A stretch of 64,000 bases of DNA, taken from positions 1 to 64,000 of the forward strand of contig CAXHJY010000762.1 in assembly GCA_964016885.1 (NCBI GenBank). The letters run 5' to 3'. The notes beneath the pieces were generated by a model. That model was not told the DNA's origin. It did no database searches and saw only the letters and a list, made by a program, of their open reading frames with translations. Below, piece after piece: positions 1,365 to 13,378 of this stretch. Position numbers and translations under genes: made by a program. Position 1 is the stretch's first letter; each line of letters opens with the position of its first letter. Source of the stretch: Eledone cirrhosa (taxonomy: Eukaryota).

Positions 1365-1771
1365 GTATATATATATATATATATACATATGTATATATAT
1401 ATATATATATACATATGTATATATATACATATGTATATATATATATGTATATATATACATATATCTATATGTATATATGTATATAAATGCTTATATACCT
1501 ATATATATATACACAAACACACACAAATATACATGTATCTACATTGTGTGCTACAGACACACACATATATATATATAGTTTGTGTGTATGTGTGTGTAGT
1601 TCTGTGTGTGTATGTGTGTGTAGTTCTATGTGTCTGTGTGTGTAAAGGAAATAAAGAACTATAACATATGGTCTGACAGACACTTTAGTACGAGTTAACA
1701 GGGAAGAAGATATAAAGAAATCGCTTTATATACATACATATATATATATATATATATGTCTATATATATAA

Positions 1772-1805
<34 letters not shown>

Positions 1806-1862
1806 GTCTATAGACATATATATATATATGTCTATATATATATATATATGTCTATATATATA

Positions 1863-2261
1863 TAAGTATGCATGTATACGTACATACATATATGTATACA
1901 GACGTACAGTAGCATGCACATATATATATATATACATATATATATACATATGCATACAGGTACACATACATATATGCACGTATCAGTTTAGCGGCGCTAA
2001 CGTCGCTTTGTTCGTTTGTAAACAAACTGAACAGCCTGAACAAAAAGGTGACGTGGTTGCCTTAACACCGTATGGCATAAATTCAGGCTGTTCAGTTTGT
2101 TTACAAACGAACAAAGCGACGTTAGCGCCGCTAAACTGATACGTGCATATATGTATGTGTACCTGTATGCATATGTATATATATATGTATATATATATAT
2201 ATATGTGCATGCTACTGTACGTCTGTATACATATATGTATGTACGTATACATGCATACTTA
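1863..2261. repeat. Fold-back inverted duplication at the 5' end of the array
   Basis: 1863-2040 is the reverse complement of 2082-2261, with a 41-nt spacer (2041-2081). The junction uses the tgaa/ttca 4-bp complementarity present in the unit. Confidence 0.95.
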
Positions 2262-5200
2262 CATTTAAGTAAGTGCCATACTAAGAGTGAGAAATGAAAT
2301 TTCGTTTTCATTTTGTTTCAATTTATCGTTTTCGGTATGCCTGACCGATTTAACTCACTCAATATGCAAATTAGGCTGCTCAGCCGTTAATTTCATAAGG
2401 AAAGTATATACTTTCGAACGTTCAACTATCTGGCAGATAGGTAAACGGTGCTGATGATAGCTAACAAGCTTGAAACTAGTACATCGTTCCTGTGTCAGTG
2501 TTGAACAAAAAGGTGACGTGGTTGCCTTAACACCGTATGGCATAAATTCAGGCTGTTCAGTTTGTTTACAAACGAACAAAGCGACGTTAGCGCCGCTAAA
2601 CTGATACGTGCATATATGTATGTGTACCTGTATGCATATGTATATATATATATATATATATGTGCATGCTACTGTACGTCTGTATACATATATGTATGTA
2701 CGTATACATGCATACTTACATTTAAGTAAGTGCCATACTAAGAGTGAGAAATGAAATTTCGTTTTCATTTTGTTTCAATTTATCGTTTTCGGTATGCCTG
2801 ACCGATTTAACTCACTCAATATGCAAATTAGGCTGCTCAGCCGTTAATTTTCATAAGGAAAGTATATACTTTCGAACGTTCAACTATCTGGCAGATAGGT
2901 AAACGGTGCTGATGATAGCTAACAAGCTTGAAACTAGTACATCGTTCCTGTGTCAGTGTTGAACAAAAAGGTGACGTGGTTGCCTTAACACCGTATGGCA
3001 TAAATTCAGGCTGTTCAGTTTGTTTACAAACGAACAAAGCGACGTTAGCGCCGCTAAACTGATACGTGCATATATGTATGTGTACCTGTATGCATATGTA
3101 TATATATATGTATATATATATATATATGTGCATGCTACTGTACGTCTGTATACATATATGTATGTACGTATACATGCATACTTACATTTAAGTAAGTGCC
3201 ATACTAAGAGTGAGAAATGAAATTTCGTTTTCATTTTGTTTCAATTTATCGTTTTCGGTATGCCTGACCGATTTAACTCACTCAATATGCAAATTAGGCT
3301 GCTCAGCCGTTAATTTTCATAAGGAAAGTATATACTTTCGAACGTTCAACTATCTGGCAGATAGGTAAACGGTGCTGATGATAGCTAACAAGCTTGAAAC
3401 TAGTACATCGTTCCGGTGTCAGTGTTGAACAAAAAGGTGACGTGGTTGCCTTAACACCGTATGGCATAAATTCAGGCTGTTCAGTTTGTTTACAAACGAA
3501 CAAAGCGACGTTAGCGCCGCTAAACTGATACGTGCATATATGTATGTGTACCTGTATGCATATGTATATATATATGTATATATATATATATATGTGCATG
3601 CTACTGTACGTCTGTATACATATATGTATGTACGTATACATGCATACTTACATTTAAGTAAGTGCCATACTAAGAGTGAGAAATGAAATTTCGTTTTCAT
3701 TTTGTTTCAATTTATCGTTTTCGGTATGCCTGACCGATTTAACTCACTCAATATGCAAATTAGGCTGCTCAGCCGTTAATTTTCATAAGGAAAGTATATA
3801 CTTTCGAACGTTCAACTATCTGGCAGATAGGTAAACGGTGCTGATGATAGCTAACAAGCTTGAAACTAGTACATCGTTCCTGTGTCAGTGTTGAACAAAA
3901 AGGTGACGTGGTTGCCTTAACACCGTATGGCATAAATTCAGGCTGTTCAGTTTGTTTACAAACGAACAAAGCGACGTTAGCGCCGCTAAACTGATACGTG
4001 CATATATGTATGTGTACCTGTATGCATATGTATATATATATGTATATATATATATATATGTGCATGCTACTGTACGTCTGTATACATATATGTATGTACG
4101 TATACATGCATACTTACATTTAAGTAAGTGCCATACTAAGAGTGAGAAATGAAATTTCGTTTTCATTTTGTTTCAATTTATCGCTTTCGGTATGCCTGAC
4201 CGATTTAACTCACTCAATATGCAAATTAGGCTGCTCAGCCGTTAATTTTCATAAGGAAAGTATATACTTTCGAACGTTCAACTATCTGGCAGATAGGTAA
4301 ACGGTGCTGATGATAGCTAACAAGCTTGAAACTAGTACATCGTTCCTGTGTCAGTGTTGAACAAAAAGGTGACGTGGTTGCCTTAACACCGTATGGCATA
4401 AATTCAGGCTGTTCAGTTTGTTTACAAACGAACAAAGCGACGTTAGCGCCGCTAAACTGATACGTGCATATATGTATGTGTACCTGTATGCATATGTATA
4501 TATATATGTATATATATATATATATGTGCATGCTACTGTACGTCTGTATACATATATGTATGTACGTATACATGCATACTTACATTTAAGTAAGTGCCAT
4601 ACTAAGAGTGAGAAATGAAATTTCGTTTTCATTTTGTTTCAATTTATCGTTTTCGGTATGCCTGACCGATTTAACTCACTCAATATGCAAATTAGGCTGC
4701 TCAGCCGTTAATTTTCATAAGGAAAGTATATACTTTCGAACGTTCAACTATCTGGCAGATAGGTAAACGGTGCTGATGATAGCTAACAAGCTTGAAACTA
4801 GTACATCGTTCCTGTGTCAGTGTTGAACAAAAAGGTGACGTGGTTGCCTTAACACCGTATGGCATAAATTCAGGCTGTTCAGTTTGTTTACAAACGAACA
4901 AAGCGACGTTAGCGCCGCTAAACTGATACGTGCATATATGTATGTGTACCTGTATGCATATGTATATATATATGTATATATATATATATATGTGCATGCT
5001 ACTGTACGTCTGTATACATATATGTATGTACGTATACATGCATACTTACATTTAAGTAAGTGCCATACTAAGAGTGAGAAATGAAATTTCGTTTTCATTT
5101 TGTTTCAATTTATCGTTTTCGGTATGCCTGACCGATTTAACTCACTCAATATGCAAATTAGGCTGCTCAGCCGTTAATTTTCATAAGGAAAGTATATACT

Positions 5201-7444
5201 TTCGAACGTTCAACTATCTGGCAGATAGGTAAACGGTGCTGATGATAGCTAACAAGCTTGAAACTAGTACATCGTTCCTGTGTCAGTGTTGAACAAAAAG
5301 GTGACGTGGTTGCCTTAACACCGTATGGCATAAATTCAGGCTGTTCAGTTTGTTTACAAACGAACAAAGCGACGTTAGCGCCGCTAAACTGATACGTGCA
5401 TATATGTATGTGTACCTGTATGCATATGTATATATATATGTATATATATATATATATGTGCATGCTACTGTACGTCTGTATACATATATGTATGTACGTA
5501 TACATGCATACTTACATTTAAGTAAGTGCCATACTAAGAGTGAGAAATGAAATTTCGTTTTCATTTTGTTTCAATTTATCGTTTTCGGTATGCCTGACCG
5601 ATTTAACTCACTCAATATGCAAATTAGGCTGCTCAGCCGTTAATTTTCATAAGGAAAGTATATACTTTCGAACGTTCAACTATCTGGCAGATAGGTAAAC
5701 GGTGCTGATGATAGCTAACAAGCTTGAAACTAGTACATCGTTCCTGTGTCAGTGTTGAACAAAAAGGTGACGTGGTTGCCTTAACACCGTATGGCATAAA
5801 TTCAGGCTGTTCAGTTTGTTTACAAACGAACAAAGCGACGTTAGCGCCGCTAAACTGATACGTGCATATATGTATGTGTACCTGTATGCATATGTATATA
5901 TATATGTATATATATATATATATGTGCATGCTACTGTACGTCTGTATACATATATGTATGTACGTATACATGCATACTTACATTTAAGTAAGTGCCATAC
6001 TAAGAGTGAGAAATGAAATTTCGTTTTCATTTTGTTTCAATTTATCGTTTTCGGTATGCCTGACCGATTTAACTCACTCAATATGCAAATTAGGCTGCTC
6101 AGCCGTTAATTTTCATAAGGAAAGTATATACTTTCGAACGTTCAACTATCTGGCAGATAGGTAAACGGTGCTGATGATAGCTAACAAGCTTGAAACTAGT
6201 ACATCGTTCCTGTGTCAGTGTTGAACAAAAAGGTGACGTGGTTGCCTTAACACCGTATGGCATAAATTCAGGCTGTTCAGTTTGTTTACAAACGAACAAA
6301 GCGACGTTAGCGCCGCTAAACTGATACGTGCATATATGTATGTGTACCTGTATGCATATGTATATATATATGTATATATATATATATATGTGCATGCTAC
6401 TGTACGTCTGTATACATATATGTATGTACGTATACATGCATACTTACATTTAAGTAAGTGCCATACTAAGAGTGAGAAATGAAATTTCGTTTTCATTTTG
6501 TTTCAATTTATCGTTTTCGGTATGCCTGACCGATTTAACTCACTCAATATGCAAATTAGGCTGCTCAGCCGTTAATTTTCATAAGGAAAGTATATACTTT
6601 CGAACGTTCAACTATCTGGCAGATAGGTAAACGGTGCTGATGATAGCTAACAAGCTTGAAACTAGTACATCGTTCCTGTGTCAGTGTTGAACAAAAAGGT
6701 GACGTGGTTGCCTTAACACCGTATGGCATAAATTCAGGCTGTTCAGTTTGTTTACAAACGAACAAAGCGACGTTAGCGCCGCTAAACTGATACGTGCATA
6801 TATGTATGTGTACCTGTATGCATATGTATATATATATGTATATATATATATATATGTGCATGCTACTGTACGTCTGTATACATATATGTATGTACGTATA
6901 CATGCATACTTACATTTAAGTAAGTGCCATACTAAGAGTGACAAATGAAATTTCGTTTTCATTTTGTTTCAATTTATCGTTTTCGGTATGCCTGACCGAT
7001 TTAACTCACTCAATATGCAAATTAGGCTGCTCAGCCGTTAATTTTCATAAGGAAAGTATATACTTTCGAACGTTCAACTATCTGGCAGATAGGTAAACGG
7101 TGCTGATGATAGCTAACAAGCTTGAAACTAGTACATCGTTCCTGTGTCAGTGTTGAACAAAAAGGTGACGTGGTTGCCTTAACACCGTATGGCATAAATT
7201 CAGGCTGTTCAGTTTGTTTACAAACGAACAAAGCGACGTTAGCGCCGCTAAACTGATACGTGCATATATGTATGTGTACCTGTATGCATATGTATATATA
7301 TATGTATATATATATATATATGTGCATGCTACTGTACGTCTGTATACATATATGTATGTACGTATACATGCATACTTACATTTAAGTAAGTGCCATACTA
7401 AGAGTGAGAAATGAAATTTCGTTTTCATTTTGTTTCAATTTATC
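2037..7444 (+). repeat. Tandem array of ~11.6 copies of a 466-bp unit, each full unit carrying a hammerhead ribozyme (retrozyme-like / Penelope pLTR-like array)
   Basis: CTGATGA core recurs at 2451, 2909, 3375, 3841, 4307, 4773, 5239, 5705, 6171, 6637 and 7103 (period 466; first interval 458 owing to a shorter internal TA tract). I noticed only three substitutions (3415, 4184, 6942). Confidence 0.97.
2439..2491 (+). ncRNA. Minimal type I hammerhead ribozyme (first of 11 copies)
   Basis: agg-ta-AACGGTG (stem I) CTGATGA t AGCT-aaca-AGCT (stem II) t GAAA CTAG TA^ CATCGTT-cct (stem I'). Intact CUGAUGA/GAAA core, GUA cleavage triplet (cut after 2481), palindromic ACTAGT stem III typical of dimer-forming minimal HHRs. 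Confidence 0.9.
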
Positions 7445-12375
<4,931 letters not shown>

Positions 12376-13378
12376 CTGTATTCTATATATACACACACAC
12401 ACACACACACAGACATATATATATATTATATTGGGAGAGAGGGAGAGAGAGAGAGCGTGTGTCTGTGTAAGACAAAAGCAAAAAAATAATGAGAAGTGAG
12501 GGAGGGTAGAGAGAAGACTGCTGGTCATTATTTCCTAGAATGGTCAATTTAAGCCGTTGTTTGGTGACATTTTTCTGTTAAATATATAGCACTGTTGTTT
12601 ACAGTCTGCTATTGAAAGCTCACTAAACATAATTAGTGAAGCGTGGAAGTTAAATGAATGAAAAACATATTATTTGTTTGGGAAATGTGAGTTCAAATTC
12701 ACTGTTTCGAATAAAACTAGGTTGTTTTAAAAATTATAAATATTTTAAAGTTATATATTTCATGTAGCTGTCGAGAGTATATATGGGATTGTCTAGTCCC
12801 GTGTCAACACTGGCTTAAAAGTCAAGGGCTCGTCTCAATTTCCGTTTAACTTTTCCATTCAGTGTGTCCAATGCCATGGAATACCTGGGGCGATACACCT
12901 ATTGTGATATCGCTGATGTGTACACATGTCATATCACAGATGTGTGCAATGATATGGCATGTTTCCGCCCCACCTCGTAACCACCGTAAAGGCCCTGTCA
13001 TCAGGGTCAATTGGTATTCACCTGGTCGGTGACTGTTTCTCTGTTGGTGTTTTACCCGAAGCTCTGCCCCCAGATCTTAATACAACACAAATGCCGTTGC
13101 ACATCCACGCTAGATTCTTTCGGCCTATAACCACTGTCATACCACCTCGGTGGTTGTCGTATTCCACACCAAGTCGATCTCAAAGATATTTTAAGCAGGG
13201 CTTGACGATGCTGGCTTCCCATCGCAGCTAGTTAGTATAAGACAGAAGGGTCGGTAAAGGGCCAGATAGCATTAGCAACTTCCTTTTTTGTGGAGGCAAG
13301 CCCCTCATCCTTGACGTGACATGCAGTCACAATTTTTCTAGCAGTAAGTCAGCGACAGGTCCAAGTTTCTTCATCACC

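What the first reader, a model, noticed from the sequence alone, without database searches (positions are those of the whole stretch)
1863..2261. 5' fold-back cap on the ribozyme array (Penelope-type inverted terminus)
Seen: ~178 bp immediately 5' of the array is a near-perfect inverted copy of the adjacent unit sequence, with a 41-nt loop closed by tgaa/ttca. Established: Penelope-like elements often carry an inverted partial pLTR at their 5' end. Inference: nascent cDNA snapped back and self-primed second-strand synthesis, pointing to a PLE reverse transcriptase as the mobilising enzyme.
Basis: partly seen in the sequence, partly recalled or inferred. Interest (0 to 1): 0.72.

Follow-up and report, generated by a model that had tools for sequence, protein, structure and literature searches.

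The report
Two-armed Penelope-type ribozyme insertion
The inverted piece is real, and it is the short arm of a two-armed insertion of an abundant repeat that carries a predicted self-cutting RNA motif; its fixed ends suggest that a Penelope-type enzyme likely copied one RNA twice, once from each strand of a cut TA repeat, rather than folding one copy back on itself.

Summary
Observation confirmed: 1863-2040 is the reverse complement of 2082-2261 (one 2-nt indel, 41-nt spacer, TGAA overlap). The array is a 466-bp hammerhead retrozyme (10,261 exact ribozyme matches in the genome) lying in a (TA)n tract. The inversion is a family-wide trait. Outer ends fall at two fixed sites about 62 nt apart (A, B). 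Of 63 head-to-head joints, 47 pair one A with one B end, none AA or BB, 16 unresolved; the window is A+B. Autonomous RT+GIY-YIG Penelope-like families in the genome show the same rule, so the Penelope link holds. The short snap-back does not generalise: the junction is unique, arm lengths are independent, 9 of 47 arm pairs cannot be copies of each other as they stand, and shared variants line up from the outer ends in 3 loci. Best model: two cDNAs primed on both target strands and joined head-to-head by microhomology (0.66). Full fold-back plus later central deletion stays open (0.22). The partner enzyme was not identified and reads gave no test. Inverted arms with a one-sided tail are known for Penelope elements; this scan has reported two-armed retrozymes elsewhere in this genome.

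The parts
1727..1862 (.). Left (TA)n target tract with TATGTC interruptions
1863..2040 (-). Short arm (unit positions 66-245, position 1 = first base after the ribozyme cut); its outer end at 1863 is family end site A
2037..2040 (.). 4-nt microhomology TGAA shared by both arms at the head-to-head joint; the joint is unique in the genome
2041..2081 (+). 41-nt apparent loop: ordinary unit sequence (positions 25-65) at the start of the long arm
2037..7444 (+). Long arm: 11.6 tandem 466-bp retrozyme units, starting at unit position 21 and ending at family end site B
2445..2487 (+). First of 11 minimal type I hammerhead motifs (stem I, CTGATGA, stem II, GAAA, palindromic ACTAGT, predicted cut after GTA at 2481); further cores at 2909, 3375, 3841, 4307, 4773, 5239, 5705, 6171, 6637, 7103
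   Evidence: cleavage is predicted, not assayed
7379..7444 (+). Tail: the 66 nt by which the long arm's outer end (site B) runs past the short arm's outer end (site A)
7445..12391 (.). Right (TA)n target tract with TATGTC interruptions

Best explanation
The 178-bp inversion is the short arm of a two-armed insertion of a non-coding hammerhead repeat into a TA microsatellite, and it was likely made as a second cDNA by a Penelope-type (Neptune-like) RT/GIY-YIG enzyme rather than by the first cDNA folding back. Shown: both outer ends sit at two fixed sites of the unit (A about 245-251, B about 302-311) and run straight into (TA)n; resolved joints always pair A with B; both arms come from the same template; the joint carries a short overlap. 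Inferred: the endonuclease cuts both strands of the self-complementary (TA)n; two RT subunits on one multimeric or circular RNA start at A and at B, one from each DNA end; the two cDNAs stop independently (180 and about 5,400 nt here); their 3' ends anneal through TGAA/TTCA and are filled in.
For: A+B rule: 47 of 63 joints A+B, 0 AA, 0 BB, 16 unresolved (24 of 33 plus L118 in the position-ordered set, 12 of 18 in the best-hit set, 10 of 12 in a later set fetched after the rule was noted). Single arms end at either site (15 B, 7 A of 22). Both ends show the same few-base scatter at TA-like bases. Arm lengths are uncorrelated (Spearman -0.12, n=36; A longer in 14 of 36). In 9 of 47 loci neither arm contains the other (8, L202). 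Arms share a template: within-locus distance below the between-locus median in 29 of 31. Shared variants follow the outer-end register in L045, L197 and, shifted by one unit, L118. Overlap of 2 nt or more in 13 of 20 direct joints against 17% at random. Four autonomous families with RT, CX4CxxC linker and C-terminal GIY-YIG have two ends 40-70 nt apart before (TA)n, and 7 of 7 scored head-to-head pairs have one short and one long end. In vitro a Penelope-like protein cuts and extends both strands, starts at two internal RNA sites that bound the tail, and is predicted to be a dimer (PMC11167929).
Against: The outer-end register and the unequal arms are also expected if a complete fold-back copy later lost its centre unevenly. 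Two autonomous copies have 1.6-1.9-kb arms with central loops of only 8 and 26 nt (L166, L156), which independent stops do not predict. Short apparent loops are borderline enriched (p 0.05-0.08). L049 holds a true 15-nt fold-back. Variants in L089, L200 and L041 are not shared in the outer-end register. The in vitro paper saw no difference in start site between the two strands and used a Poseidon-clade protein. The window's own units are too alike over 66-245 to show which one the short arm matches. The partner enzyme is not identified.
Confidence: 0.66

Rival explanations
1. One cDNA is primed at site B, folds back at its 3' end and is copied all the way to site A of the last unit, where it is cut or switched onto the other target end; the long palindrome then loses its centre unevenly, leaving arms of any length.
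For: Explains the A+B rule, the shared template and the outer-end register. L156 and L166 are near-perfect palindromes with 26- and 8-nt loops. Self-priming and endonuclease resolution are the published proposals (PMC3846280; PMC8557442).
Against: Needs multi-kb one-sided deletions in the youngest loci (window 180 vs 5,417 nt; L039 5,184 vs 1,520; L205 3,216 vs 122). The A arm is the longer one in 14 of 36 loci. Site A is an RT start site in the in vitro system.
Confidence: 0.22
2. One reading: the cDNA end folds back over a 41-nt loop, copies the adjacent 178 nt and is then joined to the target.
For: Geometrically possible in the window and in roughly 10 of 47 loci with loops up to about 60 nt. 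TGAA/TTCA would serve as primer. A 15-nt fold-back is seen in L049.
Against: Does not explain why the copy stops at A when the long arm ends at B and at B when it ends at A. Impossible as it stands in 9 of 47 loci. In L197 the joint is symmetric but the A arm matches the second B unit, not the adjacent one. The joint occurs once in the genome.
Confidence: 0.08
3. Read or assembly fold-back chimera, or two independent insertions side by side.
For: The window is an unplaced contig and no read bridging the joint was seen (no test).
Against: The flanks are not mirrored, the arms differ by an indel, dozens of loci with different joints and ages show the same rule, and both arms share locus-specific variants.
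Confidence: 0.03

Closest known systems
EN+ Penelope-like elements with inverted pLTR and tail (PMC3846280, PMC8557442; passages read)
   Same: Inverted 5'-truncated copy next to the 5' end, tail at one end only, microhomology at the joint, (TA)n targets, hammerhead near the 3' end.
   Different: No ORF; both arms can be many tandem units; the tail is about 62 nt rather than 30-40; the strict A+B pairing is counted here and read as two priming events, whereas those papers propose self-priming or endonuclease resolution.
Metazoan non-LTR retrozymes (PMC7229834, passages; preprint 10.64898/2026.07.22.740005, parts 1-3 of 5)
   Same: Tandem units of a few hundred bases, low GC, one type I hammerhead per unit, thousands of copies, autonomous PLEs in the same genome.
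   Different: 'Inverted' does not occur in PMC7229834 and the preprint parts read describe no two-armed insertions or fixed ends. No circular RNA is shown here, and the unit was not matched to a PLE pLTR.
Poseidon element of the green anole in vitro (PMC11167929, parts 1-2 of 4 read)
   Same: Two internal RT start sites that bound the tail; AT-rich target; both strands cut and extended.
   Different: That paper does not address inverted arms or pairing of the two sites; the partner here is probably Neptune-like.
L1 twin priming (recalled, not read here)
   Same: Two cDNAs primed from the two target strands and joined by microhomology give a 5' inversion.
   Different: In L1 the second primer lands at a variable internal site upstream of the first cDNA; here both starts are fixed, about 62 nt apart, and the arms duplicate each other.

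Membership tests
Metazoan non-LTR retrozyme | Tandem repeat of 150-1000-bp units, each with a type I hammerhead | tested here: met
   11.6 x 466 bp, 11 cores; stems I and II pair, and a distant relative keeps both by changes on both sides
Metazoan non-LTR retrozyme | Non-coding, dispersed in many copies | tested here: met
   10,261 exact 40-nt ribozyme matches, reversed control 0; arms end in (TA)n and no joined PLE ORF was found
Metazoan non-LTR retrozyme | Self-cleavage and circular RNA in vivo | not testable with these tools
   No RNA holder was listed; needs an assay
EN+ Penelope-like insertion signature | Head-to-head inverted 5'-truncated copy | tested here: met
   63 joints in 97 fetched stretches including the window
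EN+ Penelope-like insertion signature | Tail at one end only | tested here: met
   47 of 47 resolved joints are A+B
EN+ Penelope-like insertion signature | Simple AT-rich or (TA)n target | tested here: met
   (TA)n follows the outer ends, apart from one end of L087; a target duplication cannot be read in (TA)n
Autonomous PLE | ORF with RT and GIY-YIG domains in the element | tested here: not met
   The array is units only; RT+GIY-YIG ORFs lie in other elements
Non-autonomous derivative of a given PLE | Unit homologous to the pLTR of an autonomous family | tested here: inconclusive
   0 of 70 GIY-YIG loci examined, out of 10,597 first-look candidates
Neptune clade (candidate partners F1-F4) | [quoted passage not shown] | tested here: met
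   4 of 5 ORFs checked carry CX4CxxC; L161 does not; no tree was built

The most novel reading that the evidence does not exclude
Penelope-like elements insert by asymmetric two-ended reverse transcription: one enzyme dimer holds one RNA, one subunit always starts at the tail-less site and the other at the tailed site, one from each end of the cut target. The inverted pLTR, the one-sided tail and this 'cap' are all products of that single reaction, and this retrozyme family, with about 10,000 ribozyme copies and unit-level marks, records it.
Probability: 0.55. Interest if true: 0.72.

Novelty: new variant of a known kind. Interest (0 to 1): 0.52.

Why it matters
How Penelope-like elements make their inverted ends and one-sided tail is named as open in the papers read (PMC8557442, PMC3846280, PMC11167929). 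The strict A+B pairing links the two in vitro start sites to the two ends of one insertion and gives a sharp test between self-priming and two-ended priming. It is also direct genomic evidence that a hammerhead retrozyme is moved by Penelope-type machinery, which earlier work inferred from co-occurrence and sequence similarity. The structure itself is not new for Penelope elements.

Tried and rejected
Rfam scan: no hit. Reads: 24 runs listed, no RNA holder listed; of 4 runs laid, 3 gave no records and one gave 475 short contigs, none bridging the joint, so there is no read test. Partner search: 70 GIY-YIG loci, none with the unit as terminal repeat; unit hits there were separate insertions. 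Mixed head-to-head joints (retrozyme arm plus another family's arm: L072, L096 with a short end; L115, L074 with a long end; L094 unknown) first looked decisive but can arise by deletion into a neighbouring element, so they are not used. Mirror test of private variants was uninformative in most loci. The monomer's fold z-score of -8.5 owes much to the internal TA palindrome and is not used. Look-up of earlier findings by sequence gave nothing. No complex prediction was run.

Full report
Observation. Window 1863-2040 is the reverse complement of 2082-2261, with no substitution and one 2-nt indel in the unit's internal TA tract; 41 nt lie between, and TGAA at 2037-2040 belongs to both arms. The array 2037-7444 has 11.6 units of 466 bp at 99% matches and sits between (TA)n tracts with the same interruptions. 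The longest comparable exact inverted repeat in window 13,000-63,800 was 33 nt. Rfam gave nothing. Each unit carries a minimal type I hammerhead layout: stem I, CTGATGA, a 4-bp stem II, GAAA and the palindrome ACTAGT, as described for Penelope-type motifs (PMC4209133, passages). A distant relative keeps both stems with changed letters (counts there are inflated by overlapping loci). Unit positions below count from the predicted cut.

The family. The 40-nt ribozyme core has 10,261 exact matches in the 3.0-Gb genome, reversed control 0. I examined three sets: best BLAST hits plus the window (27 stretches; overlapping or duplicated loci dropped), all 51 stretches holding the first 100 listed ribozyme matches on contig C1, and 19 further loci of the young subfamily fetched after the rule had been noted. 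The outer ends cluster at A (242-255) and B (298-311) and run into (TA)n. Head-to-head joints: 24 A+B of 33 in the ordered set (L118 became A+B on extension), 12 of 18 in the first set, 10 of 12 in the last set (read by eye; two older neighbouring copies not counted). In all, 47 of 63 are A+B, none AA or BB, 16 have an end elsewhere. Single arms end at B or A (15 and 7 in the ordered set, 4 and 3 in the last). The window is A (left) plus B (right). So the 'cap' is one arm of a common two-armed structure, and its outer end is a family 3' end, not a random stop.

Penelope link. A GIY-YIG search gave 10,597 first-look candidates, 150 scored. Five ORFs checked hit RVT_1, four of them also GIY-YIG; four carry a CX4CxxC linker, the Neptune mark named in PMC8557442 (passages). 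Four such families have two alternative 3' ends 40-70 nt apart followed by (TA)n, and 7 of 7 head-to-head pairs with both ends printed have one short and one long end. Two short non-coding families do the same (7 of 7 and 2 of 2). None of 70 GIY-YIG loci has the 466-bp unit as terminal repeat, so the partner is not named. The inverted copy and one-sided tail are published Penelope features (PMC3846280, PMC8557442; passages).

Snap-back or two primings. For two primings: arm lengths are independent (Spearman -0.12, n=36); in 9 of 47 loci neither arm contains the other; yet both arms share a template (29 of 31, five loci skipped for too few shared sites). In L197 the A arm shares two private changes with the second B unit, not the adjacent one. 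In L045 three marks line up from the outer ends. In L118 the A arm's marks match B units 12-13 or 9-10 of 15. Joints overlap by 2 nt or more in 13 of 20 cases against 17% at random, four more have 2-5-nt inserts (24 of 36 loci scored). Start offsets do not differ from shuffled pairings (27 loci, p 0.05-0.28), and the window's joint occurs once. A purified Penelope-like protein cuts and extends both strands, starts at two sites bounding the tail and is predicted to be a dimer (PMC11167929, parts 1-2 of 4). Against: two autonomous copies are near-perfect palindromes with 8- and 26-nt loops; short loops are borderline enriched; L049 has a real 15-nt fold-back; L089, L200 and L041 do not share variants in the outer register. 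A complete fold-back followed by uneven central deletion predicts the same register and cannot be excluded from sequence. For the window itself the units are too alike to tell which one the short arm matches.

Mechanism. Shown: fixed ends, A+B pairing, shared template, microhomology, TA target, autonomous elements with the same rule. Inferred: cutting of both (TA)n strands, two RT starts on one multimeric or circular RNA, independent stops, annealing of the cDNA ends, fill-in. Untested: ribozyme activity, expression, circles, the partner. The likeness to L1 twin priming is recalled, not read.

Novelty. Non-LTR retrozymes and their proposed dependence on PLEs are in print (PMC7229834, passages; preprint 10.64898/2026.07.22.740005, parts 1-3 of 5). 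I found no paper that counts the A+B pairing or explains inverted ends by two primings in the searches; the library lacks most subscription papers and supplements were not read. Earlier notes of this scan describe two-armed retrozymes on other DNA of this genome; they agree with a reading I had recorded before and are not independent support.

Verdict. Real feature, Penelope-type signature on a retrozyme; the snap-back reading is probably wrong; interest 0.52.

Noticed in passing
L192, L193, L028 (G000:C3:12,278,000-12,297,800): An array of more than 40 units whose ribozyme carries two A-to-G changes, one turning the predicted cut triplet GTA into GTG; the longest array seen may have an inactive ribozyme.
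   Followed up: partly
L072, L096, L115, L074, L094: Head-to-head joints between a retrozyme arm and an arm of a different TA-targeting family; two-RNA events or deletions into a neighbour.
   Followed up: partly
L051, L073, L086, L117, L154, L169, L177; L070, L082: Two short non-coding families form small palindromes with one short and one long 3' end in (TA)n.
   Followed up: partly
L167:3100-3330, L160, L156, L151: A further family with a minimal hammerhead forms small inverted pairs next to autonomous element ends.
   Followed up: no
L182:12-501, L208:1743-1883: Distant relative of the unit (74-78% over short stretches) with both ribozyme stems kept by changes on both sides.
   Followed up: partly
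L118/L191, L041: Unit variants recur with a period of three units inside long arms, suggesting block duplication or a multimeric template.
   Followed up: partly
unit position 424 in L039, L041, L045, L204, L208: A/G differs between units of one locus in many loci; possibly RNA editing of the template, not tested.
   Followed up: no
L156:1789-5537, L166:3360-6625: Autonomous elements as 3.3-3.7-kb near-perfect palindromes with 26- and 8-nt loops inside the ORF.
   Followed up: partly
window 7445-12391: A 4.9-kb (TA)n tract directly behind the array.
   Followed up: no
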